A DNA stretch of 64,000 bases from an uncultured Gemmatimonadales bacterium (GTDB lineage Bacteria > Gemmatimonadota > Gemmatimonadetes > Gemmatimonadales > GWC2-71-9): contig CAWGED010000003.1 in the NCBI GenBank assembly GCA_963821525.1, positions 32,001-96,000 on the forward strand, read 5' to 3'. Shown piece after piece: positions 10,051 through 57,554 of the stretch. Below the pieces are notes generated by a model. It did no database searches, had not been told where the DNA came from, and saw only the letters and a program-made list of their open reading frames with translations. Every line of letters starts with the position of its first letter. Position 1 is the stretch's first letter. A program made the translations under genes and the position numbers.

Positions 10051-10193
10051 AAGTACCGAGTACCTAGTCCCGAGTACCTAGTACAGAGTACTGCGTAGTT
10101 CTGACTCCGAGCTCTCGGCATGTGGTCTCTGGAAATCCAAACTCAGCGCTCGGTACGCAGTTCTCGGTACTCGTTACTAGGTACTCGGTACTT
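10051..10193. repeat. Inverted pair of heptamer arrays (agtaccg/agtacct ... cggtact/aggtact)
   Basis: Perfect 18-bp terminal IR (10051-10068 / 10176-10193) built from 7-mers. Confidence 0.92.
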
Positions 10194-14495: not shown

Positions 14496-16920
<2,425 letters not shown>

Positions 16921-22806: not shown

Positions 22807-24226
22807 TGGAACACCAGATCGGTATAGAGGATCTGCTGGTCGCGCTCGAAGTAGAGCCGCACCGGCTGGCGCGATCGCAGATTCTCGATCACCTCGTTCA
22901 CGTCATCCGCCGAACGGATGTAGCGCCGGTTCATCGCCACGATCACGTCGCCGCGGCGGAGCCCCGTGGACTGGGCCAGGGCGTCGGCGATGCGGAAGAT
23001 GAGTGCGCCTCGCTCGCTCTGAACGCCCTGTTCGGCCTGGATCGCGGGTGTCACGGTCACCAGCTGCAGGTCCTTCAGGACCGTCACCTTTTCTGCGGCG
23101 ACGGTCGGGAGGTCACCGGTCGTGATCGTCGACGTGGTGGTCTTGCTGCCTTGACGATAGGTCACCTTCACCCCGTCACCCACGTGCAGATCCAGCTTCA
23201 CCGCCTCCCAGTCGAGGTAGTTCCGCAGGGTTCGGCCGTTGGCCTGAGTCAGGACATCCTTGGCTTGCAGGCCGGCCCGGGCGGCCGGGCCACCCGGAGC
23301 CACCGTGGTCACCAGCACGCCGCCCTGAGTCTTCCACTCGCGCAGCGATTCGGCGCCGGCGACGTCGAGGCCGACCCAGGCGCGCCGCACCTCGCCGTTC
23401 TTCACGATTTCGTCCGCTACTCGCAGTGCGCGCTCGATGGGGATGGCGAAGCCCAGTCCGATCGATCCCCCGCTTTGGGAGAAGATCGACGAATTGACCC
23501 CGACCACCTCGCCCAGGGCGTTGGCGAGGGGACCGCCGGAATTGCCGGGGTTGATCGAAGCGTCGGTCTGAATCATGTCGAGGTAGAGGCCCGCCTGATC
23601 CTGACTCGGCAAAATATTCCGTCCCGTGGCACTCACGACTCCCGCCGTCACCGTGGGCTCCGCATTGCCCAGCAGGTACGCGAAGGGATTGCCCAGGGCC
23701 ACGACCCATTCGCCAATCATCAGATCGGTGCTCTTGCCCGGAGTCGCGACCTGGAGACCGCGCCGGTCAACCTTGATCACCGCGATGTCGGTCAGTGCAT
23801 CCTCACCCAGCAACTTGGCGGGGAGATCGCTCCCGTCGGGCAACGTCACCACGATCTTGGTTCCCCCCGCCACCACGTGCTGGTTGGTGAGAATGGTGCC
23901 ATCGGGGCGGATGACGAATCCGGTAGCGAAGCTCTGGACCGTCTGCTCCTGGCCCTGAGGCAGGAAGAAGAAGTCCCATGGCGTTTGGGGTGTCGCGCGG
24001 CGCCGGCTGTCCACCGTGATGGAGACGACGCTGGAGGACACCCGCTGGGCCGCCTCGACGATCGCGGTGCGGCGAGTGGCGTCCACCGCGCTGCTCGCCT
24101 GGCGCGAGGTCTGCGCCTGCACCTGCGCCGTGGCGAGGGTGGAAAGCATCCGCTCGGCCTGCCCGTTGCTTCCTGGGCGACCACAACTCAGGGCGGCGAA
24201 GGCGACGGCAAGGCGACGCGCCTCAT
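22803..24226 (-). CDS. HtrA/DegP-family serine protease with two PDZ domains, probable lipoprotein (frameshift in the signal region)
   Basis: LTNQHVV, DIAVIK, QTDASINPGNSGGPL; ALSC lipobox upstream of the listed ORF. Confidence 0.92.
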
Positions 24227-25008
24227 GCGCTCACCTCCATCGGTTCGGCGTAGCAGACCGCGGGGTATTCGGCCGCGACGAAGTACAGGCCTTGAGGTGG
24301 AGCTGGCGGGCTGGTGAGCTGGTTGTCGCGGCTGGCGAGAAGCATCGCGATGTCGTCCACCGGGCGACGGGCCAGTCCGACATCAACCATGGTCCCGACG
24401 AGGAAGCGCACCATGTGGTGGAGGAAGCGGTCGGCCGCGACGTGAAAGCGGAAGCCCCGGTCGCCTTCCCGGGGCTCCCAACGCGCCGTGACCACCCGGC
24501 AGCGATAGTGCGGCTTCGGCCCCGACCGGGCGGCGAACGCCTCGAAGCTGTGCTGTCCCTGGATCTGATCCGCCGCCCGCCGCATCAGCCCGAGATCGAG
24601 CGCGCGACCCAGCGGCCACTCGTAGGGCCGACGAAACGGAGAAAAAGCGGCGTCGTCCGTTCCGACGTCATAGCGGTAGCGGCGCCCCGAGGCGCTTTTG
24701 CGGGCGTGGAATCCTGGCTTCATCGGCATCACGGCTTCGACCCAGCAGTCGCGGGGCAACAGGGCATTGAGAGCCCGGCGCAGCGCGTCTGCGGTCCATT
24801 TTGGTGGTGCCGCGAAACTCACCCCGAGGCCGAGGGCATGCACCCCGGCGTCGGTCCGGCCAGCCGCGTGGCACGCGATCCGGCGGCCACACAACCGCTC
24901 CATGACCCCCTCGAACTCCGCCTGGACCGAGCGCCCGGAAGCCTGGCGCTGCCACCCCACGAAGTCCCGGCCATCATAGTGCAGGAGGGCCAGATAGGTG
25001 CGGGTCAT
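24223..25008 (-). CDS. truA: tRNA pseudouridine(38-40) synthase
   Basis: YDGRDFVGWQRQ, AGRTDAGVHA, FLHHMVR. Confidence 0.97.
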   Translation of the reverse strand: MTRTYLALLHYDGRDFVGWQRQASGRSVQAEFEGVMERLCGRRIACHAAGRTDAGVHALGLGVSFAAPPKWTADALRRALNALLPRDCWVEAVMPMKPGFHARKSASGRRYRYDVGTDDAAFSPFRRPYEWPLGRALDLGLMRRAADQIQGQHSFEAFAARSGPKPHYRCRVVTARWEPREGDRGFRFHVAADRFLHHMVRFLVGTMVDVGLARRPVDDIAMLLASRDNQLTSPPAPPQGLYFVAAEYPAVCYAEPMEVSA

Positions 25009-25056
25009 GAGGCCCGAAATATAGTCGGCCCGGGACCGGTTTGCTTACCTTATGTG

Positions 25057-26112
25057 ATGACCTCTACTGACCAATCCGCCCTCCCACTCGAGAGCGCGCT
25101 GACGTCCCTCGAACAGGGGCAGGACCTCACCGCCGGCCAGGCCGCGGCGGCCTTCGGCGTCATCATGCGCGGCGAAGCCACCGCCGACCAGATCAAGGCC
25201 TTATTACTCGGCCTCCGCGCCAAGGGCGAGACGTTCGAAGAGATCGCCGGCGCGGCCCAGGCGCTCCGCCAGGCAATGATCACCGTGAGCCCGTCGGCCG
25301 GCTCTCCGATCGTGGATACCTGCGGAACCGGCGGCGGCACAGTCGGCACCTTCAACATCTCGACCGCGGCGGGGTTCGTCGTCGCTGCGGCCGGTGTCAG
25401 GGTCGCCAAGCACGGCAACCGCAGTTACACCTCGAAGTGCGGCAGCGCCGACGTGCTCGAGGCCCTCGGCGTCGACATCACTGTTGCGCCTGACCGAATC
25501 GCGACTCTGCTCGACCGTGCGGGCATGGCCTTCCTCTTCGCCCCGAATTTCCATCCCGCCATGCGTCACGTCGGGCCGGTTCGCAAGGAACTTGGCGTCG
25601 CAACGGTGATGAATCTGCTCGGCCCATTGGCCAATCCCGCCGGAGTCACCCGCCAGGTGATTGGTGTCTCCGATCGCGTCCGCGCGTGTCGGATCGCACA
25701 GGCCGTAGCTCGTCTTGGAGCCGACCACGCCCTCGTGGTGCACGCGGAACTCGGGATGGACGAGATCAGTCCGGTGGGCTCCACCTACGTCTGGGAGGTG
25801 CGCGATAACGCGGTGACGACCTGGGTGATTCAGCCGGCAGAGCACGATCAGGCGTGGGAGCGCGCCGAGGACCTGGCCGGTGGAGGTCCGCGGGAGAACG
25901 CGGCGAGAATTGAGAGATTGCTCGACGGCTCGGCGAGTGGCCAGGATGATGAGGCTGGAAGGAGGGCGGTGGTCCTGAATGCGGCGGCGGGTTTGTACGT
26001 CGCTGGGGTGGTGGGGAGTTATGGGGAGGGGGTTAAGGTGGCGGGTGAGGTACTGCGGACGGGGAAGGGTGGAGAGGTGTTGAGGAGGTTGCGGGAGAAA
26101 GCAGACGGCTAG
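25057..26112 (+). CDS. trpD: Anthranilate phosphoribosyltransferase
   Basis: DTCGTGG, FNISTAA, AKHGNRS, GSADVLEALG. Confidence 0.96.
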   Translation: MTSTDQSALPLESALTSLEQGQDLTAGQAAAAFGVIMRGEATADQIKALLLGLRAKGETFEEIAGAAQALRQAMITVSPSAGSPIVDTCGTGGGTVGTFNISTAAGFVVAAAGVRVAKHGNRSYTSKCGSADVLEALGVDITVAPDRIATLLDRAGMAFLFAPNFHPAMRHVGPVRKELGVATVMNLLGPLANPAGVTRQVIGVSDRVRACRIAQAVARLGADHALVVHAELGMDEISPVGSTYVWEVRDNAVTTWVIQPAEHDQAWERAEDLAGGGPRENAARIERLLDGSASGQDDEAGRRAVVLNAAAGLYVAGVVGSYGEGVKVAGEVLRTGKGGEVLRRLREKADG

Positions 26113-26678
26113 ACGGAAAGACGGTTCGACGGTTCGACGGTTCGTGGCTTGGCGGTTCGTGGTTCGTCGGTTCGTTTCGCTGCCTTGAGTCTTTCGGATG
26201 CTCGACGCAGCCCTCGCGCTAGACCACCAACCAACTGGCTCGCCCGCTGCTGCATTTGATCCAAGCGCTGGAATTCCGCTGGGGCCAGAAAACCCACACG
26301 ATGTGCCAGTCGCAGGGCGAACGACAGTTCGGCTAGGGACCCGGCACTGATGTCCGCGTAGCGACGAAATTCACGTGGTCCCGACTTGGCGCAGCCTTCG
26401 GCGAGATTTGCCCCTGCAGAGTATGCAGCCCGCCTCACTTGAGAGGTGAGTTCGAACCGCTCCTGTCGTGGCCAGGCATTGGTGGTGCGGTAGAGCTCAA
26501 CCGCGAGGTCAAAGCAGGCCTGCCAGGCTTTCAGCCGCAGGTAGGGAGGTTCTTCCAGGCTCGCCATCCACGCACTGTAGGCGCATTCCTGGCTTTCAAG
26601 ACAACCAGCCCAACGCACCGGCCACCTTAAGCACGCGGCGCTTTTCGAACCGTCGAACCGTCGAACCGTCTAGCCGTC
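26104..26678. mobile_element. Putative element: four-helix-bundle gene bracketed by inverted octamer arrays
   Basis: Left gacggcta-gacggaaa-(gacggttc)3 is the reverse complement of right 26646-26678 apart from one extra unit; mobility is inferred. Confidence 0.6.
26109..26567 (-). CDS. Four-helix-bundle protein (23S rRNA IVP / Avd-like family)
   Basis: LKAWQ..DL..ELYR.T..WP..ERFELTSQVRRAAYS..ANLAEG......EFRRY..I..GSL.E. Confidence 0.92.
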   Translation of the reverse strand: MASLEEPPYLRLKAWQACFDLAVELYRTTNAWPRQERFELTSQVRRAAYSAGANLAEGCAKSGPREFRRYADISAGSLAELSFALRLAHRVGFLAPAEFQRLDQMQQRASQLVGGLARGLRRASERLKAAKRTDEPRTAKPRTVEPSNRLSV

Positions 26679-26699: not shown

Positions 26700-27308
26700 C
26701 TAGTACTTCCGAATCACCCCCACCACCACTCCCTGAATCAACACATCCCGCTCCTGAAAACGCATCGGCTGCATGGTGGGATTGGCGGGCTGCAGACGAA
26801 TCCACCCGCCGGCCTCACGATAGAAGCGCTTCACCGTGGCCTCGGAGCCGTTCACCAGAGCGATCACCATCTCTCCGCTCTCGGCGGCCTCCTTGCCGTG
26901 GACCACGACGAAGTCTCCATCCATGATGTGCTCGTCGATCATGGACTCGCCCTGGACCTTGAGCGCGTAGTTGGGGCCGCGGCGAGGCAGCAGGCTGTCG
27001 GGGACCGCGATGGTCTCCTGAGCCATGATGGATTCGATTGGGGTGCCGGCGGCGACTTTACCGAGCAGAGGAATTTCAGTGGCGCCGGACTGGCCCTTGG
27101 GCGGCAGGACCTCGATGGCGCGACTCTCGTTATGGGTGCGGTGGATATATCCCTTCCGCTCCAGGTTGGTCAGGTGCTCATGCACCGTGGCCAGCGACTG
27201 GAACCCGAACTGCTCGGCGATTTCCTCGAAGCTTGGCGCATACCCCCTGTCGCGGATATGCTCCTGTAGGTACTTGAGGATTTCGCTCTGACGCCTGGTG
27301 AGCGGCAT
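26700..27308 (-). CDS. lexA: SOS repressor LexA
   Basis: LTRRQ, PSFEEI, HTH SLATVHEHLTNLERKGYI, VAAG cleavage site, GESM, TVKR. Confidence 0.97.
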   Translation of the reverse strand: MPLTRRQSEILKYLQEHIRDRGYAPSFEEIAEQFGFQSLATVHEHLTNLERKGYIHRTHNESRAIEVLPPKGQSGATEIPLLGKVAAGTPIESIMAQETIAVPDSLLPRRGPNYALKVQGESMIDEHIMDGDFVVVHGKEAAESGEMVIALVNGSEATVKRFYREAGGWIRLQPANPTMQPMRFQERDVLIQGVVVGVIRKY

Positions 27309-36233: not shown

Positions 36234-37047
36234 ATGCCCGACGACCAAGCCCGCGCCCTGACCATCCGCGACCTGCTCGACGCCAAGCGCGAAGGGCGGA
36301 AGATCGTCGTCCTCACCTGCTACGACGCGCTCACCGCGCGGGTACTCGATCCGATCGTGGACCTGCTCCTGGTCGGAGACTCGGTCAACCAGGTCGTCGC
36401 CGGTCACGGGACCACGCTAAGCGCGACGCTGGACCAGATGATCTATCACGCCGCCGCGGTGCGCCGGGGTGCGCAACCGCGCACTGGTGTTCGTGGATCT
36501 GCCGTTCCTGACCTATCAGATCTCGATCGCCGAGGCGCTGCGCAATGCGGGCAGAGTCCTGCAGGAGAGCGGGGCGCACGGCGTCAAGCTGGAAGGCGGC
36601 CGTCACATGGCCGAGACGATCCGCGCCCTGGTACAGGTCGGCATCCCCGTGATGGGACACCTCGGCCTCACGCCGCAGTCGGTCAACGCGCTCGGCGGGT
36701 ACCGGGTTCAGGGCAGGGAGGCCGATACCGGCACCCGGCTCCTGGAAGATGCCAAGGCGCTGGAAGAGGCGGGTGCCTGTTCGATGGTTCTCGAGCTGAT
36801 TCCGGCCGAGCTAGCGGGCCGGATCAGTGCGGCGGTGCGGGTACCGACAATCGGCATCGGGGCCGGCGCTTCCTGCGACGGGCAGGTGCTGGTGCTGCAG
36901 GACATGCTCGGCCTCAATCAGGACTTCACTCCCAAATTTCTCAAGAAGTACGCCGATCTCACCTCCGCCATCCGCCAGGCGGCTGTGGCATACGCCGATG
37001 ACGTGCGGGCCGGACGGTATCCTGGGAAGGAGCACAGTTTTGAGTAG
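36234..37047 (+). CDS. panB: Ketopantoate hydroxymethyltransferase (frameshift near 36475)
   Basis: LTCYD, LLVGDS, VKLEGG, GHLGLTPQS, IGIGAG..CDGQVLV. Confidence 0.95.
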
Positions 37048-37240
37048 CCGTTAGCCGTAAGCCGTCAGCCATAGGCTCCGTGCAAGCAGACGCAAAGACA
37101 AGGACCCAAGATCAGGAAGACATCAGGGATAGAAGATGAATTCAAATTGTGCTGCGACCCCTCTGTGCTCTCTGTGCCTCTGCGTTTAAGACTCACTCGG
37201 CCTCGGCCAAGAGCCAAGCTGACGGCTGACGGCTGATGGC
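37045..37240. repeat. Inverted heptamer pair (agccgtc ... gacggct) enclosing a degenerate ctctgtg-type 9-mer array
   Basis: tagccgttagccgtaagccgtcagcc ... cctctgtgctctctgtgcctctgcg ... gctgacggctgacggctgatgg. Confidence 0.88.
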
Positions 37241-38093
37241 TCTCCCCGAATTCCCCGACATTCCCAGTCTCCGCTCCTGGATCGCCCGCGAGCGCGGAGC
37301 AGGGAAGCGCATCGGGCTCGTGCCGACCATGGGCGCGTTGCACGAAGGCCACCTCTCGCTGGTGGATCATGCCCGTCGCCATGCACAGAGCGTGGTGATG
37401 AGCATCTTCGTCAACCCGCTGCAGTTCGGTCCGAAGGAAGACTTCGGCCGATACCCGCGCGATCTCCATCGCGACCGCGCGCAGGCCGAGGGACGCGGAG
37501 TGCACGCGCTGTTCGTGCCGACGGTGGAGGCGATGTACCCGCCCGGCGCGGAGACCCGGGTCGTGCCCGGCAGCTCGGCCGAGCGCTGGGAAGGAGAGAT
37601 GCGGCCGGGACATTTCGCCGGGGTGCTCACGGTTGTGGCGAAGCTGTTCCACATCGTTCAGCCGGACGTCGCCGTGTTCGGGCAGAAGGACATCCAGCAG
37701 GCGGTCCTGATTCGGCAGATGGCGCGTGACCTGGACTGGCCGCTCGAGCTGATTATCGCCCCGACGGTTCGCGAGGCGGACGGCCTGGCGCTCAGCAGCC
37801 GCAACGCCTACCTGGATCCGGCTCAACGCCGCGAGGCGCTGGCGCTGAGTCAGGCCCTCCGGGCCGCGGAACGTGCCTGGCACGCCGGAGAAGATGATGC
37901 GGCGCGGCTCGAGGCGGCGATGCGAGAGGTGTTCCGGCTGCATCCGTCGGTCAGCGTGGACTATATTGCGATCGTTGATGAACGTCTCGCGCCGACGGCA
38001 CGCGCTTCGGCCGGCACCGTCGTCGCTGTGGCGGCCCGCGTCGGCACTACGCGGCTGCTCGATAACCTCATACTCGGCGTGGAGTTTCCTTGA
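37236..38093 (+). CDS. panC: Pantoate-beta-alanine ligase
   Basis: VPTMGALHEGH, FVNPLQF, FGQKD, GLALSSRN, RLLDN. Confidence 0.97.
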   Translation: MALPEFPDIPSLRSWIARERGAGKRIGLVPTMGALHEGHLSLVDHARRHAQSVVMSIFVNPLQFGPKEDFGRYPRDLHRDRAQAEGRGVHALFVPTVEAMYPPGAETRVVPGSSAERWEGEMRPGHFAGVLTVVAKLFHIVQPDVAVFGQKDIQQAVLIRQMARDLDWPLELIIAPTVREADGLALSSRNAYLDPAQRREALALSQALRAAERAWHAGEDDAARLEAAMREVFRLHPSVSVDYIAIVDERLAPTARASAGTVVAVAARVGTTRLLDNLILGVEFP

Positions 38094-39071: not shown

Positions 39072-39174
39072 GATTGCCGATTGCTGATTGCCGATTGCTG
39101 ATTGGAGCGGCTCAACCCAAATCTCAATCTTCAATCTTATTCTCAATCTCAATCGGCAATCGTCAATCGGCAAT
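39072..39174. repeat. Inverted heptamer pair (gattgcc/gattgct ... ggcaatc)
   Basis: Between convergent stop codons. Confidence 0.9.
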
Positions 39175-41912: not shown

Positions 41913-42910
41913 GCCACACGCGTTACGAGCCGGCCCGGGCCCGCCTGCAGCGCAGTGAGCTGGCGGTGCCCGGGTCCAATCCGGCCATGTTCCCCAAGGC
42001 GCTCGAGAGCGAGGCGGACTACATCTTCCTCGATCTCGAAGACGCCGTGGCGCCCGCCGACAAGGTTGCCGCGCGACTCCACGTCATCAAAGGCCTGCAG
42101 GAGTACGATTGGCGCGAACGCGGGAAGACCATCTGCGTTCGCATCAACGGCATCGATACCCACTACATGTACCGCGACGTGGTGGACGTCGTGGAACAGG
42201 CGGGCCAGCGGCTCGACACCATCCTGATCCCGAAGGTGGGCGTCCCGGCCGACGTGTACCTGGTTGACGCGCTGCTCACCCAGATCGAAACGGCGAAGGG
42301 CATCGGTCACCGCATCGGCATCGATGTCCTGATCGAAACCTCGCTCGGCATGGCGAATGTCGAGGCCATCGCGCAGAGCTCGAAACGGCTCGAGGCGATG
42401 CACTTCGGTGTCGCCGACTACGCGGCAAGCATGCGGGCCCGCACCGTCTCGATCGGCGGGCTCAATCCCGATTATCCCGGCGATCAATGGCACGCCTCGC
42501 TCACCAGGATGATCGTGGCCTGCCGCGCCTACGGGCTGCGGCCGATCGATGGTCCCTTCGGCGACTTCAAGGACGCCGAGGGCTACCTCGCGGCCGCCCG
42601 TCGTGGCGCCGCCTTGGGCATCGAAGGCAAGTGGGCGATTCACCCCTCCCAGATCGCGCTGGCCAACCAGGTCTTCACCCCGCCTCCCGCAGAAGTCGAA
42701 CGGGCCCAGCGCATCCTCGACGCGCTGGATGAGGCGGCTCGAAACGGCAAAGGCGCCGCCCAGCTCGACGGCAAGATGATCGATGCGGCGAGTGCCAGGA
42801 TGGCGTCGGTGATTGTCGACATGGCCAAGGCGATCAGACAGAACAGAGCCATCAGCCGTCAGCCGTCAGCCGAAGAGCATAGGCTGCACGCGCTGACGGC
42901 TGATGGCTGA
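41909..42910 (+). CDS. mcl: L-malyl-CoA / beta-methylmalyl-CoA lyase
   Basis: MSHT...[55 protein letters not shown]. Confidence 0.92.
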
Positions 42911-42916
42911 AGGCTG
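42847..42916. repeat. Inverted heptamer pair (cagccgt ... acggctg) overlapping the mcl 3' end
   Basis: gccatcagccgtcagccgtcagcc ... gctgacggctgatggctgaaggctg. Confidence 0.9.
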
Positions 42917-42939: not shown

Positions 42940-44122
42940 GTGGACATACACGAGTACCAAGCCAAAGAACTCCTCGCCAACTTCGGCGTCGCGATCCCGC
43001 CGGGCGGGGTGGCGTACAGCGCGGAGCAGGCGGTATATCGCGCGGCCGAGATTGGCGGCTCGCGGTGGGCGGTGAAGGCGCAGATCCATTCGGGCGCTCG
43101 GGGCAAGGCCGGTGGGATCAAGCTCTGCACCACCGAGGACGAGGTGCGAAAGGCGGCGACTGCCCTGCTTGGCAGCCGGCTGGTCACTCATCAGACGGGG
43201 CCCGAGGGTAAAGTCGTCCACCGGCTCTACGTCGAAGCGGCGGTGCCGATCGAGCGGGAGCTCTACATCGGCTTCGTGCTCGACCGGAAGACTGAACGGA
43301 TCATGCTGGTAGCCCACCCGCACGGCGGCATGGAGATCGAAGAGATCGCGAAGAGCGAGCCCGAGACGATCCTGCGCCAGACCATGGAGCCCGCGGTGGG
43401 CATGCAGGCGTTCCAGGCTCGAGAGATCGCCTTCGGACTGGGGCTGGATCCCGCCCAGGTGAATCGCATGGCCAACATACTGCTGGGTTGTCACCGGGCG
43501 TTCCGCGATCTCGACGCCACCATGGTGGAGATCAATCCGCTGGTATTGACCAAGGACGGCCGGCTCCTGGCACTCGATGCCAAAATGGGATTCGACGACA
43601 ACGCCCTTTTCCGCCGGCCCCAGGTGAGTGAGCTGCGGGACCACGCCGAGGAGGATCCGCGTGAGGCCCAGGCCGCGGAGTACGGGCTCAACTACGTGGC
43701 ACTCGACGGCGAAATCGGCTGCATCATCAACGGAGCCGGTCTCGCCATGGCGACGATGGACATGATCAAACACGCGGGAGGCCAGCCGGCCAACTTCCTC
43801 GACGTGGGCGGCGGCGCCTCGCCGGAGCGGGTCGCCATGGCCTTCAAGCTGGTGCTGCAGGACAAGAAGGTCGGGGCGATGCTGGTCAACATCTTCGCCG
43901 GCATCAACCGGTGTGATTGGGTGGCGAAGGGTGTGGTGCAGGCGGTGAAGGAAGTCGGGGTTGAGGTGCCTCTGGTCGTGCGGCTGGCGGGAACCAACGT
44001 CGAGGAAGGGTCGGCGCATCCTGGATGAGTCGAAGCTCCCGCTGATCCAGGCCGACAGTCTGGAGGACGCGGCGAACAAGGTGGTGGCCGCGTGGAAAGG
44101 CAAACAAAAACGTGAGAAGTGA
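42940..44122 (+). CDS. mtkA: Malate-CoA ligase beta subunit (frameshift near 44015)
   Basis: [33 protein letters not shown] (Mtk-like); serine-cycle context. Confidence 0.88.
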
Positions 44123-44195
44123 GAGGTGAGGGTGAGAGGGCGCAGCGATCAGCTTCTTGCCATCCCCTCTCACTTCTCACCTCTTACTTCTCACG
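44111..44195. repeat. Inverted heptamer pair (gtgagaa ... ttctcac)
   Basis: Contains the mtkA stop codon. Confidence 0.9.
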
Positions 44196-55697: not shown

Positions 55698-57461
55698 CCG
55701 CCACCGCATTACGGACTCACCGCTGCGGCAGTCTCCGCCGCGACCACGCGGGCCAGAAGGTTCGCCTCGGCGGCTGGGTGCATCGGGTGCGCGATCTTGG
55801 CGGGCTTCTGTTCATTGACCTGCGGGACCGCGACGGGATCGTGCAGCTCTCCTTCGATCCCAAGTGGACTCCAGCCGAGGTGCTGCGCCGGGCCGGAGAG
55901 GTCGGAGCCGAGAGTGTCGTACTGGTGAGCGGTACAGTTGAGCTCCGGCCGGAGTCCGCGCGCGACACCGCCCTCGCCACTCGCGACGTCGAAATCAGGG
56001 TGGAATCCCTGCAGATCGTGGGGCCGGCGGAGACGCCCGCGATTCCGGTCGCCCGCAAGGAGGGCGAGGAGCTTCCCGCCGAGGAGCTGCGACTCAAGCA
56101 CCGGGTGCTCGACCTGCGCCGCCCGGAGCTGGCGCGGAACCTCATGCTGCGACACCGCCTCCTGCAGCGCTCCCGGCGCACCCTCACCGAGCTCGATTTC
56201 CTGGAGCTCGAGACACCGATTCTCACCAAGCCGACTCCCGAAGGCGCGCGCGACTACCTGGTTCCGAGCCGGATTCATCCGGGGGAGTTCTTCGCGCTGC
56301 CCCAGTCGCCCCAGATCTACAAGCAGCTGCTGATGGTGGCGGGCTACGATCGCTACTTCCAGATCGCGCGCTGCTTCCGGGACGAAGATCTCCGCGCCGA
56401 TCGCCAGCCCGAGTTCACTCAGATCGACCTGGAAGCGTCGCTTCGTCTCGACGGACGATGTGATGGCCGTGGTCGAGAAGGTCCTGGTGGACCTGTGGGC
56501 CGAAGCGGGACAGTCGGTGCAGACGCCGTTCCTTCGGATGCCGTGGCGGGAGGCGATGGAACGCTTTGGCGTGGACAAGCCCGACCTGCGCTACGACCTC
56601 GAAATCCGGGACCTCACTCCTCAAGTCGGAGCCGACGCGGCGGAATTCCTCAAGTCCGCCGTGGCAGGCGGCCAGCGCCTGCGTGCCATCATCGCCCCGG
56701 GATCTGCCGGCATGAGCCGGAAGGAAATCGACGGGCTCACGGCGATCGTCAAAGGCGCCAAGGCGGGAGGACTGATCTGGGCCAAGCGCACAGCGACGGG
56801 GTGGGAAGGGCAGGGAGTAAAGGCGGTTGGCACGGAGACGCTGGCGAAGCTGGGCACCGAGGGGGATCTGCTGCTCGCGGTTGTGGGAACTGATCAGGTC
56901 ACCTCACCCGCGCTGCACGCCCTGCGCTCGGAGCTGGTCCGGCGGCCCGGTATGAAGGCCAACAAGGATCACGCCTTCTGCTGGATCGTGGACTTCCCGC
57001 TCTTCGAGCTGGACCCCGACACCGGGCAGCACGTGCCGGCGCACCATCCGTTCACCGCTCCGCATCCGGATGACATTGCTCAGCTGACCAGCAATCCGGC
57101 CGGGACTCGTGCACTGCACTACGATGCGGTGTACAACGGCAACGAGCTGGGCAGCGGCTCCATCCGGATCACCGATCCCAAGGTTCAGCGCAAAATCTTC
57201 GAGCTGCTGGGCATTCCGGACTCCGAGATCCGTCGCCGCTTCGGTTTCCTGCTCGACGGCCTGGCCGCTGGCGCGCCCCCCCATGGCGGATTCGCCCTGG
57301 GGTTCGATCGAATTTCGATGCTGTTGGCAGGAGCTACGTCGCTGCGGGATGTAATCGCGTTCCCCAAGACTACGGCGGCACGGGCCTTGTTCGAGGGGGC
57401 GCCGACGGTAGTGAATCCAGAGGACTTGAAGGCGTTGCACATTGAGGTACGGGAGACGTGA
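55694..57461 (+). CDS. aspS: Aspartate-tRNA ligase (frameshift near 56440)
   Basis: LRTHRCG, PEGARDYLVPSR, FRDEDLRADRQPEFTQID, PPHGGFALGFDR, IAFPKT. Confidence 0.97.
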
Positions 57462-57554
57462 GAGGTGAGACGTGAGAGGTGAGAGTAAGACGTGAGAGGC
57501 GAGAAGTGAGAAGTGAGGGCGTTTCCCTCTCACCTCTTACGTCTCACGTCTCAC
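57453..57554. repeat. Inverted heptamer pair (gtgagac/gtgagag ... gtctcac)
   Basis: Begins inside the aspS stop region; about 9 left and 4 right units. Confidence 0.92.

What the first reader, a model, noticed from the sequence alone, without database searches (positions are those of the whole stretch)
26104..26678. Four-helix-bundle (IVP/Avd-like) gene bracketed by inverted octamer arrays: candidate 'loaded' form of a dispersed repeat system
Seen: the gene lies between trpD and lexA and is bracketed by (gacggttc)n on the left and (gaaccgtc)n on the right. The 33-bp right arm is the exact reverse complement of the left arm apart from one extra unit, and the left arm includes the trpD stop. 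The same architecture occurs with only a short spacer at seven other junctions. Established: this family has no settled function, is related to the DGR accessory protein Avd, and was first found in 23S rRNA intervening sequences. Inference: inverted microsatellite arms plus this gene may form an mRNA-level intervening/processing element or a transposase-free mobile unit, with the gene-less copies being non-autonomous derivatives.
Basis: partly seen in the sequence, partly recalled or inferred. Interest (0 to 1): 0.88.

Follow-up and report, generated by a model that had tools for sequence, protein, structure and literature searches.

The report
Hairpin-bracketed four-helix-bundle gene cassette

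Summary
A PF05635/TIGR02436 gene (window 26109-26567, minus strand) lies between 33-41-nt inverted octamer arrays. The left arm contains the trpD stop.

This is a rule, not a coincidence. All 13 PF05635 matches in this Gemmatimonadales genome have inverted flanks 435-581 nt apart. In a control, 1 of 300 random positions reached the same score. The rule also holds for:
- 25 of 27 loci in the order
- 31 of 38 loci from a collection scan
- 11 of 13 loci in four other phyla
- 7 of 8 loci on plasmids of named bacteria, mostly cyanobacteria

The gene is under purifying selection. At fixed junctions, gene and arms are often replaced together as a block. The cassette can be absent with its arms, and it was inverted once. 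The 225 gene-less hairpins share its position at gene 3' ends, its polarity and its repeat families, but carry no gene remnants. GxxExxY and DUF559 nuclease-family genes are bracketed the same way.

Best reading: an IVS-like guest gene cassette closed by a stem. RNase III, which cuts rRNA IVS stems, was not found in this bacterial class, so excision is unlikely here.

I found no paper describing this. Earlier notes of this scan report the same cassette in at least 13 other genomes.

The parts
26104..26144 (.). Left arm (the 3' arm relative to the gene). It consists of GACGGNNN octamers and includes the trpD stop TAG at 26110-26112 and the cassette ORF stop at 26109-26111, which overlap in a CTAG palindrome.
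26145..26175 (.). Degenerate inward continuation of the left array (CGGTTCGT-like units). It encodes part of the C-terminal tail of the ORF.
   Evidence: (26122-26175, period 8, 7.0 copies)
26109..26567 (-). Four-helix-bundle (23S_rRNA_IVP / TIGR02436) ORF. The likely start is ATG 26565-26567; the listed ORF starts at GTG 26616-26618. The tail runs through the left arm.
26568..26644 (-). Leader between the 5' arm and the start codon. It is the presumed site of the cassette's own promoter, which is inferred; no sigma-70-like match was found.
26645..26678 (.). Right arm (the 5' arm relative to the gene): (GAACCGTC)3 followed by TAGCCGTC. It begins 22 nt from the lexA stop.
25096..26112 (+). TrpD-type gene (Glycos_trans_3N + Glycos_transf_3 domains). 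Its last codons and its stop lie in the left arm.
26700..27308 (-). lexA (LexA DNA-binding domain + Peptidase S24), on the same strand as the cassette gene.
10052..10192 (.). Gene-less hairpin, (AGTACCG)n arms, 61-nt loop.
37046..37241 (.). Gene-less hairpin, (AGCCGTN)n arms, 148-nt loop.
39073..39174 (.). Gene-less hairpin, (ATTGCCG)n arms, 52-nt loop.
42847..42915 (.). Gene-less hairpin, (AGCCGTC)n arms, 21-nt loop.
44112..44194 (.). Gene-less hairpin, (GTGAGAG)n arms, 45-nt loop.
57458..57554 (.). Gene-less hairpin, (GTGAGAG/GTGAGAC)n arms, 41-nt loop.

Best explanation
The feature is a self-contained guest gene cassette of the kind known from ORF-bearing rRNA intervening sequences, lodged here between two protein genes. 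Its order is: 5' arm, then a leader of about 80-190 nt, then the four-helix-bundle ORF, then a 3' arm that abuts or overlaps the stop codon.

Shown:
- This packaging is the rule for the gene family, in this genome and beyond.
- The protein is under purifying selection.
- Gene and arms are often replaced together at the same junction. They can be absent together, and the cassette can be flipped.
- The arms are the same kind of structure as the genome's 225 gene-less hairpins. They share location just after stop codons, a G-rich 5' arm, and repeat families.

Inferred mechanism:
- The two arms pair in any transcript that crosses the insert, and possibly in single-stranded DNA. This closes the roughly 500-nt insert into a stem-loop.
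- The stem gives trpD and lexA a hairpin 3' end, acting as a terminator or stabiliser, so the insert does not disturb its neighbours.
- The gene is expressed from its own leader. This is supported by the natural inversion and by the antisense orientation of 7 of 7 cassettes lying between co-directional genes.
- Arms are built from whatever repeat material the host genome's hairpins use. They are tandem 7-8-mers here and unique inverted repeats in an array-poor relative. Selection for pairing plus array slippage would keep them complementary.
- Spread within the genus is mainly vertical. Alleles are swapped as blocks by recombination in the conserved flanks.
- Unlike rRNA IVS, the stem is probably not cut by RNase III in this class.

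What the protein itself does remains open.
For: Architecture. The arms pair in both the minimum-free-energy and centroid RNA folds (-267.1 kcal/mol, z = -3.7).

Family rule:
- 13 of 13 own loci score at least 12, and 12 of 13 score at least 15, with 435-581 nt between the arms.
- Of 300 random positions, 15 score at least 12 and 1 scores at least 15.
- Relatives in the order: 25 of 27.
- Collection scan: 31 of 38.
- Pirellulales, Terricaulis, an 'Akkermansia' MAG and Saccharibacteria: 11 of 13.
- Named plasmids: 7 of 8.
- The array-poor genome G019 still has long unique inverted repeats around its genes.

Selection: dN/dS is 0.03-0.36 in 11 alignable pairs.

Block replacement:
- At the trpD-lexA junction the arms are GACGGTTC or GACGGTTA in three genomes and GGCTCGGC in two.
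- The proteins there are 51-56% identical with saturated dS, beside a lexA with dS 0.32-0.37.
- The ABC-ATPase/response-regulator junction carries two unrelated cassettes.

Other events:
- Empty junctions without arms: G011 at trpD-lexA and G000 C12 near 21 kb.
- Inversion at C5:407k.
- Gene-less hairpins lie a median 14 nt from a 3' gene end. 19 of 214 are in divergent spacers, against 539 of 2381 spacers overall.
- The 5' arm is G-rich in 89 of 99 cassettes and 191 of 217 gene-less hairpins.
- 7 of 7 own cassettes between co-directional genes are antisense.

Dimensions match the Coxiella IVS: 428 nt, a 28-bp stem and the ORF in the loop (PMC4990558, passages read).
Against: - There is no RNA evidence. 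RNA runs held only 5-6% of the sampled words, and only DNA contigs could be laid.
- No sigma-70-like promoter was found in the leader.
- Mismatches in the arms show no strand bias towards G-U pairs: 111 on the sense strand against 127 on the antisense strand. RNA-level selection is therefore not demonstrated, and DNA-level pairing fits equally well.
- RNase III, the enzyme of the IVS paradigm, was not found in the class.
- A terminator or insulator role does not explain why this one protein family is the usual cargo.
- It also does not explain why the 14 most abundant array families each match a cassette's arms.
- In cyanobacterial cas operons the gene lies in sense orientation, so the antisense bias is not general.
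Confidence: 0.45

Rival explanations
1. A DNA-level mobile unit. The arms act as terminal inverted repeats or hairpin substrates for an enzyme supplied in trans, or for the four-helix-bundle protein itself. The gene-less hairpins are its non-autonomous relatives, as REPINs are to RAYT genes.
For: - Arms and gene appear and disappear together.
- In 6 of the 10 genus pairs whose interiors no longer align, the arms are also of another unit or gone. This is my by-eye reading.
- One cassette is inverted between the arms.
- 12 of 12 own cassettes use different array families (P = 0.068).
- All of the top 14 array families, and 15 of the top 20, match arms of a cassette in the genus. Simulation gives P = 0.0009 and P = 0.049; the top-14 cut was chosen after seeing the data.
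- The genome has 4 Y1-transposase genes, each flanked by REP-like palindromes.
- Nuclease-family genes (GxxExxY 3 of 3, one DUF559) sit in the same kind of bracket.
Against: - No transposase lies inside the cassette.
- No direct target duplication is seen at the two empty/loaded pairs read by eye.
- 21 of 24 G003/G004 loci lie at a junction that also holds a cassette in G000.
- 0 of 93 loops carry gene remnants.
- Block replacement is equally explained by recombination in the conserved flanks.
Confidence: 0.2
2. A cognate repeat-binding protein. Each paralogue, probably a ring of five subunits like Avd, binds tandem units of one 7-8-nt family in RNA or single-stranded DNA. Through this it tunes hairpin formation at the 3' ends of many genes. 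Its own flanking arrays would give autoregulation, a TRAP-like logic.
For: - The one-family-one-cassette pattern.
- Both solved family members, 2GSC and 2RLD, are deposited with chains A-E, and the model matches them at TM 0.86-0.96.
- Arrays typically hold 3-6 units; the median arm is 26 nt.
- Five of five IVP-free genomes of the order have 0-2.5 arrays per 100 kb, against 7-42 in four of five IVP-rich genomes.
- Among pairs with unlike flanks, those sharing an arm family have more similar proteins: 0.49 against 0.42, P = 4e-5.
- For cross-phylum pairs only, the permutation P is 0.008.
Against: - G019 has 8 genes and no arrays in 80 kb, and its arms are unique inverted repeats.
- The cross-phylum same-family pairs number 15 against 13.3 expected by chance. 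None shares an exact unit, and they are not independent.
- The array survey sampled only 40-80 kb per genome, and its IVP-rich genomes include close kin.
- There is no binding data.
Confidence: 0.15
3. Passive lodging. Small selfish genes simply insert preferentially into the loops of pre-existing terminator-like hairpins, and the arms have no role for the cassette.
For: - Gene-less hairpins share position, polarity and units with the cassettes.
- At one orthologous site the same GGAACGG arms hold the gene in G004 and a palindromic element of about 95 nt in G000.
- Several unrelated cargos occur in loops.
Against: - Empty alleles lack arms.
- An array-poor genome still supplies long inverted repeats to its cassettes.
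- rRNA IVS carry their own stems (PMC4990558).
- The fixed anatomy, with the 3' arm at the stop in 11 of 13 own cassettes.
Confidence: 0.15
4. An Avd accessory protein of a diversity-generating retroelement.
For: Fold likeness to Avd (4DWL, TM 0.81), and a weak hit to NF033474.
Against: - NF033474 scores 22.5 bits against a cut-off of 80.
- No reverse transcriptase (PF00078) was found in the genome, which is 81% complete.
- There are 13 dispersed copies, none beside an RT.
Confidence: 0.01

Closest known systems
ORF-bearing intervening sequences (IVS) of 23S/16S rRNA that encode S23p / 23S_rRNA_IVP (Leptospira, Coxiella burnetii, CPR bacteria)
   Same: - The same protein family sits in the loop.
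- The insert has the same size. The Coxiella IVS is 428 nt with a 28-bp stem of terminal inverted repeats (PMC4990558). Here the arms are 33-41 nt with about 500 nt between them.
- The insertion is tolerated because the host sequence continues on both sides of a stem.
   Different: - This insert lies between protein genes, not in an rRNA helix.
- The arms are tandem 7-8-nt arrays that differ from copy to copy.
- There are 13 copies per genome.
- RNase III, which excises rRNA IVS, was not found in this class.
RAYT genes flanked by REP/REPIN sequences (recalled from general knowledge; the four Y1_Tnp genes of this genome show the pattern)
   Same: A small gene is bracketed by inverted copies of a repeat that is also dispersed, gene-less, after many genes. 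There are hints of one gene per repeat family.
   Different: - The gene encodes a four-helix bundle, not an HUH/Y1 transposase.
- The repeats are microsatellite arrays, not a fixed palindrome.
Intergenic heptamer repeats: GGGAATC of Xanthomonas and GGGGA(C/T)T of Nostoc (Rehm et al. 2015, PMC4692102; passages read), and the cyanobacterial STRR repeats (recalled)
   Same: Tandem 7-mers lie in spacers. In Xanthomonas, 70-75 convergent pairs could form stem-loops. The function is unknown.
   Different: The paper makes no link to the four-helix-bundle family; 'intervening' occurs 0 times in its text. Here the loaded form carries that gene.
23S_rRNA_IVP genes inside cas operons (Zhang and Ye 2013, PMC3936711; passage read)
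   Same: The same gene family is wedged between operon genes. I saw the same in Pseudanabaena, Anabaena sp. 90 and Picosynechococcus PCC 7003 plasmids.
   Different: That paper read the gene as a possible Cas-associated function. The passage I read, found by searching for the family name alone, does not mention flanking inverted arrays; I did not search the paper for repeats or arrays.

Membership tests
23S_rRNA_IVP / four helix bundle protein (PF05635, TIGR02436) | Score above the curated cut-offs of the family models | tested here: met
   PF05635 scores 94.1 bits against 33.8. TIGR02436 scores 89.8 bits against 24.
23S_rRNA_IVP / four helix bundle protein (PF05635, TIGR02436) | Four-helix-bundle fold like the solved members 2GSC and 2RLD | tested here: met
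   The model has four helices and mean pLDDT 96.8. TM is 0.96 to 2GSC and 0.86-0.89 to 2RLD. By sequence, 2GSC matches at 1.8e-18.
23S_rRNA_IVP / four helix bundle protein (PF05635, TIGR02436) | Conserved motif GxxRxxxSxxxNxxE, as quoted in PMC3936711 | tested here: inconclusive
   R-x3-S-x3-N-x2-E is present (RAAYSAGANLAE). The leading G is not at the quoted spacing.
Avd of diversity-generating retroelements (NF033474) | Score above the equivalog cut-off | tested here: not met
   22.5 bits against a cut-off of 80.
Avd of diversity-generating retroelements (NF033474) | Encoded beside a DGR reverse transcriptase | tested here: not met
   No PF00078 match in the genome, which is 81% complete.
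ORF-bearing rRNA intervening sequence | Inserted in a helix of 23S or 16S rRNA | tested here: not met
   It lies between a TrpD-type gene and lexA.
ORF-bearing rRNA intervening sequence | Complementary termini form a long stem around an insert of about 430 nt with the ORF in the loop | tested here: met
   The arms are 33-34 nt at 91-94% complementarity with 501-507 nt between them. They pair in the predicted fold.
ORF-bearing rRNA intervening sequence | Excised from the transcript by RNase III | not testable with these tools
   No RNA data were available. The enzyme's gene was not found in 21 genomes of the order with PF00636 and TIGR02191, in G000 with PF14622, or in 45 genomes of the class with PF00636. 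It was found in 14 of 15 genomes in other classes of the phylum.
RAYT/REPIN system | The flanked gene encodes a Y1 (HUH) transposase | tested here: not met
   The only Pfam family matched is PF05635. The genome's four Y1_Tnp genes lie elsewhere.
RAYT/REPIN system | The gene is flanked by inverted copies of a repeat that is also dispersed without the gene | tested here: met
   The arm family AACCGTCG has 14 array loci in the genome.
RAYT/REPIN system | One gene per repeat family | tested here: inconclusive
   12 of 12 own cassettes use distinct families, P = 0.068. 15 of the top 20 families are covered, P = 0.049.
Transposon or MITE with terminal inverted repeats | Direct target-site duplication outside the arms | tested here: not met
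   None was seen by eye at the two empty/loaded pairs. This was not a formal test.

The most novel reading that the evidence does not exclude
Each four-helix-bundle paralogue is the cognate partner of one dispersed 7-8-nt repeat family. A ring-shaped oligomer reads several tandem units in RNA or single-stranded DNA. It either propagates these arrays (REPIN/RAYT-like, without a transposase fold) or controls the hairpins they form at the 3' ends of many genes. On this reading, the roughly 1,250 array loci of this genome, the STRR and heptamer repeats of cyanobacteria and Xanthomonas, and the rRNA IVS proteins would be parts of one system.
Probability: 0.17. Interest if true: 0.95.

Novelty: new variant of a known kind. 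Interest (0 to 1): 0.8.

Why it matters
The IVS-protein/Avd-like family is widespread and has had no function since it was first seen inside rRNA intervening sequences in the 1990s (date recalled). Bacterial heptamer arrays have been unexplained for about as long. If the gene is almost always enclosed by a stem, often built from such arrays, both puzzles become one testable question.

Carriers include named, cultured strains:
- Trichormus variabilis ATCC 29413
- Nostoc punctiforme PCC 73102
- Picosynechococcus sp. PCC 7003
- Azospirillum lipoferum 4B

The finding also has practical consequences. It warns against reading these genes as functional parts of the cas or other operons they sit in. 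It also shows that array-bracketed cassettes break short-read assemblies at their arms.

Tried and rejected
A three-sequence alignment worked.
- RNA evidence. The six RNA runs held only 5-6% of the sampled words and exist only as contigs. I laid four DNA runs instead. The loaded allele is present in all four, contigs break at the arms, and there are no joints, so nothing can be said about empty alleles or RNA ends.
- Replication-strand bias of cassette orientation. GC skew is too weak to call.
- A sigma-70-type promoter in the leader: none found. A leader motif (..GCGTT.. then AAATGATG about 72-86 nt before the domain) is present in only about 10 of 70 leaders.
- G-U wobble asymmetry as a sign of RNA-level selection: no signal.
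- My first array-density metric was confounded by GC-only, period-6 and period-9 low complexity. I replaced it with period 7/8, at least 3.5 copies and at least 2 A/T.
- The window pair 15091-15693 (CGCCGAGC/GGCTCGGC, 567 nt apart) lies inside a 201-residue open frame (not family-searched) and is probably a chance pair.
- IVP remnants in gene-less loops: none in 93 loops.
- The DGR/Avd reading was rejected.
- Literature. Searches, and the passages read, gave no description of the gene-plus-inverted-array layout. Subscription journals are not covered by that library.
Full report
**What is in the window**

Between a TrpD-type gene on the plus strand and lexA on the minus strand lies a minus-strand ORF (26109-26618 as listed; likely ATG at 26565-26567). 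TrpD is identified by PF00591 and PF02885; lexA runs 26700-27308 (PF01726 + PF00717).

The ORF matches 23S_rRNA_IVP (PF05635, 7.4e-27, 94.1 bits against a cut-off of 33.8) and TIGR02436 (1.3e-25).

The ORF is bracketed by a left arm at 26104-26144 and a right arm at 26645-26678. Ungapped, the arms are 34 nt at 91% or 33 nt at 94% complementary. Read with one 8-nt unit looped out of the left arm, the match is exact.

The trpD stop TAG and the stop of the cassette ORF overlap in a CTAG palindrome inside the left arm. The C-terminal tail of the ORF is encoded by the array.

Two octamer units in tandem occur six times in the window against none expected.

Folded as RNA, the arms pair in both the minimum-free-energy and the centroid structure (-267.1 kcal/mol, z = -3.7).

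A model built from an 11-sequence alignment has four helices (pLDDT 96.8). It superposes on XCC0516 (2GSC, TM 0.96), BT_0352 (2RLD, TM 0.86-0.89) and Avd (4DWL, TM 0.81). By sequence only 2GSC is found (1.8e-18).

**It is a rule for the gene family**

The window is contig C3:32001-96000 of a 4.33-Mb assembly in 19 contigs, 64% G+C and 81% complete. Named relatives place it in Gemmatimonadales.

The genome has 13 PF05635 matches, 11 of them over the cut-off. For each I scored the best ungapped inverted match (+1/-2) between the 350-nt flanks:
- All 13 score at least 12, and 12 score at least 15.
- The arms lie 435-581 nt apart, and each locus has a different repeat unit.
- Of 300 random positions treated the same way, 15 reach a score of 12 and 1 reaches 15.

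The same test on other sets, using a score of at least 15:

| Set | Loci with inverted flanks |
|---|---|
| 20 relatives of the order | 25 of 27 testable loci (misses: L021, L040) |
| Scan of species-representative genomes | 31 of 38 testable loci (misses: L048, L057, L060, L068, L078, L081, L082) |
| Four genomes of other phyla (Pirellulales 5/5, 'Akkermansia' MAG 3/3, Terricaulis 2/3, Saccharibacteria 1/2) | 11 of 13 |
| Plasmids of named strains | 7 of 8 |

Notes on these sets:
- The collection scan used a 450-nt right flank, and its loci may overlap the relatives' genomes.
- Four of the 13 other-phylum loci are loci already seen.
- The named plasmids with arms are from Trichormus variabilis ATCC 29413, Nostoc punctiforme PCC 73102, Pseudanabaena galeata, Picosynechococcus PCC 7003, Anabaena sp. 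90, Stanieria and Azospirillum lipoferum 4B.
- The exception, Nostoc PCC 7120 pGamma, has an ISL3 transposase where the left arm would be.

**Anatomy**

With the gene oriented 5' to 3', the 3' arm starts between 54 nt before and 34 nt after the stop codon in 11 of 13 own cassettes. The 5' arm ends 56-258 nt before the start of the domain match, and 107-190 nt before it in 11 of 13.

**The genome's hairpins**

Tandem Repeats Finder gives 956 period-7 rows with at least 3 copies and 1280 merged array loci of period 6-10.

Seeding from arrays, 269 inverted partners score at least 14. Loop sizes are bimodal:
- 229 loops are under 250 nt.
- None lies between 250 and 350 nt.
- 22 lie between 400 and 700 nt.

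Of those 22 rows (with for the families):
- 11 rows (10 loci) enclose a PF05635 match.
- One encloses a frameshifted IVP.
- One encloses a GxxExxY gene.
- One encloses a DUF559 gene.
- Eight enclose other or no recognisable ORFs. One of them (window 15091-15693) lies inside a 201-residue open frame and is probably a chance pair.

The 225 non-overlapping gene-less hairpins have a median arm of 26 nt and a median loop of 51 nt.

I used crude gene calls of my own (3535 ORFs chosen by GC3). With these, the hairpins lie a median 14 nt from a 3' gene end and are depleted in divergent spacers. 19 of 214 are in divergent spacers, against 539 of 2381 spacers of at least 40 nt.

The 5' arm is richer in G than C in 191 of 217 gene-less hairpins and in 89 of 99 cassettes. 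For an inverted repeat this property is the same on both strands. It is therefore a shared feature of the hairpins, not of gene orientation.

**Evolution within the genus**

At the trpD-lexA junction, four genomes of the genus are loaded with the gene in the same orientation. The arms are GACGGTTC, or GACGGTTA-like, in G000, G004 and G002. They are GGCTCGGC in G003 and G001.

A genome of another genus (G011) has an empty junction with the two stop codons 1 nt apart and no arms.

lexA is 93-96% identical in DNA. The cassette interiors match at 68-71% or not at all. The proteins are 51-56% identical with saturated dS, beside a lexA dS of 0.32-0.37 (the flank alignments are crude).

I compared 24 loci of G003 and G004 with G000:
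- 19 lie at a junction that also holds one of the 13 PF05635 matches in G000.
- Two have no counterpart in the assembly.
- Three are junctions where G000 has no gene.

The three junctions where G000 lacks the gene differ:
- One is empty with no arms.
- One has the same GGAACGG arms around a palindromic element of about 95 nt.
- One has different arms around a related palindromic sequence.

The following is my by-eye reading. In the 8 pairs whose interiors still align, the arms are the same or a closely related unit. In 6 of the 10 pairs whose interiors do not align, the arms are also different or gone.

The ABC-ATPase/response-regulator junction exists twice in the assembly, on contig C11 and at C5:276k. 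These are paralogues or co-assembled strains. They carry unrelated cassettes (39% protein identity, arms TAGCTGT against GCCGTCA). G003 carries the second type at 98% protein identity.

The cassette at C5:407k is inverted between G000 and G003 while its flanks are collinear.

dN/dS is 0.03-0.36 in the 11 pairs where dS is not saturated, so the proteins are maintained.

All 7 own cassettes that lie between co-directional genes are antisense to them. In relatives the split is 13 antisense to 4 sense. That count uses crude gene calls, has at least one misclassification, and the orthologues are not independent. In cyanobacterial cas operons the gene is in sense orientation.

**What speaks to mechanism**

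- No reverse transcriptase was found, and the Avd equivalog model is far below its cut-off. This is not a DGR.
- RNase III was not found:
  - in G000 with PF14622;
  - in 21 genomes of the order with PF00636 or TIGR02191, 15 of them at least 90% complete;
  - in 45 sampled genomes of the same class with PF00636.
- RNase III was found in 14 of 15 genomes of other classes of the phylum and in 8-9 control genomes. IVS-style excision is therefore unlikely here. A stem would persist and could act as a transcript boundary or stabiliser.
- Arm mismatches show no strand bias towards G-U (111 against 127). RNA-level selection is not demonstrated.
- The arms are not tied to microsatellites as such. G019 has 8 genes, no 7/8-mer arrays in 80 kb, and long unique inverted repeats around its genes.
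- Across 11 sampled relatives of the order (40-80 kb sampled each) plus G000, the five IVP-free genomes have 0-2.5 arrays per 100 kb. Four of five IVP-rich genomes have 7-42. Three of those four are one genus.
- The 1245 array loci of period 7-9 fall into 122 families.
  - The 12 own cassettes with assignable arms use 12 different families (P = 0.068).
  - The 14 most abundant families each match the arms of a cassette somewhere in the genus. In simulation the mean was 9.6, with P = 0.0009 for a cut chosen after the fact. At least 15 of the top 20 families are matched, P = 0.049.
- Pairs of cassettes with unlike flanks but the same arm family have more similar proteins (median 0.49 against 0.42, P = 4e-5).
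  - Across phyla the effect is weak. There are 15 pairs against 13.3 expected, with mean identity 0.451 against 0.41 and permutation P = 0.008.
  - Those pairs are not independent, and none shares an exact unit.
- None of 93 gene-less loops of at least 60 nt holds a remnant of the gene.
- All three GxxExxY (PF13366) genes and the one DUF559 gene examined here are bracketed by inverted arrays. The four Y1-transposase genes are flanked by REP-like palindromes.

**Reading**

What is shown is a discrete, selected cassette (arms, leader, ORF). It is the normal package of this gene family in several phyla and shares its stem design with the host's 3'-end hairpins.

I think it most likely (0.45) that the stem closes the insert in transcripts, or in single-stranded DNA, so that neighbours keep a hairpin end. 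The gene would then run from its own leader, with alleles exchanged as blocks through the conserved flanks.

The rivals are a DNA-level mobile unit with gene-less relatives (0.2), a cognate repeat-binding protein (0.15) and passive lodging in pre-existing hairpins (0.15). The present data do not exclude them, and the family-coverage pattern favours the first two.

**Prior knowledge**

- The Coxiella IVS is a 428-nt element with a 28-bp stem. The S23p ORF is in the loop and RNase III cuts the stem (PMC4990558, passages read).
- 23S_rRNA_IVP ORFs occur in rRNA insertions of CPR bacteria (bioRxiv 10.1101/2024.02.27.582315, passages).
- They also occur in cas loci (PMC3936711, passage; PMC10910872, figure legend only).
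- PF05635 resembles Avd (PMC10053308, passages).
- Heptamer arrays with 70-75 convergent pairs are described in Xanthomonas without any link to this gene family (PMC4692102, passages).
- No search returned a description of the gene-plus-inverted-array layout.
- Earlier notes of this scan report the same cassette in at least 13 other genomes, and the gene-less hairpins in this genome. Those are unchecked AI notes that agree with what I tested here.

Noticed in passing
Whole genome G000 and relatives (no window coordinates): The RNase III domain was not found in 45 sampled genomes of the same class. Nearly all are at least 96% complete and some are closed. It was found in 14 of 15 genomes of other classes of the phylum. 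This looks like a clean lineage-wide loss that may be linked to the abundance of long perfect hairpins in transcripts. My one search found no paper on it.
   Followed up: partly
G000 C12:247094-247200, C11:10620-10798, C18:14808-14986 and about 20 other places: A palindromic element of about 95-110 nt (ends CACCTCATCCCGAG ... CTCGGGATGAGGTG). The end motifs occur 22-27 times in the genome. At least 9 of 225 microsatellite-hairpin loops contain it.
   Followed up: partly
G000 C5:948545-949354, C4:251062-251592, C8:120386-121169; C19:770068-770576: All three GxxExxY (PF13366, PD-(D/E)XK) genes and one DUF559 gene are bracketed by inverted arrays in the same way as the four-helix-bundle genes.
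   Followed up: partly
G000 C12:49271-49965, C12:7056-7655, C1:35835-36434, C19:590098-590605: Four Y1-transposase (PF01797) genes are each flanked by inverted REP-like palindromes, which is the RAYT signature. Two copies have identical flanks.
   Followed up: no
G000 C5:406974-407575 against locus L099 (G003): The whole cassette is inverted between two genomes of the genus while both flanks stay collinear, as expected from recombination between the arms.
   Followed up: partly
G000 C11:8330-9490 against C5:276050-277200: Two near-identical ABC-ATPase/response-regulator junctions carry unrelated cassettes. The 23.7-kb contig C11 may be a paralogous region or a co-assembled strain variant.
   Followed up: partly
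225 gene-less hairpins genome-wide; six of them in the window (see parts): The 5' arm is richer in G than C in 88% of hairpins, so both strands start G-rich and end C-rich. I have no explanation for this polarity.
   Followed up: partly
G000 C12:68155-68864 and C7:75085-75810: Two ORFs are also enclosed by strong inverted arrays (scores 36 and 21): one 197-aa histidine-phosphatase-like and one CBS-domain-like. Both labels are my reading of the translations; no family search was run. So not only selfish-looking genes are bracketed.
   Followed up: no
Leaders of cassettes, e.g. G000 C18:38265-38400, C12:98358-98470, C5:276783-276906: About 10 of 70 leaders share ..GCGTT.. followed by AAATGATG, 72-86 nt before the domain start. 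This may be a promoter element.
   Followed up: partly
window 24016-25095: The ORF listed for trpD is 698 aa, but the TrpD domains start at residue 361 and no family matches the first 360 residues. The listed start is probably over-extended across the upstream gene.
   Followed up: no
Locus L110 (G004) against G000 C12:21060-21100: The empty allele already holds one unit-like 7-8-mer (CCTACCTC) where the loaded allele's right array ends. This hints that arrays can grow from a seed in host sequence.
   Followed up: no
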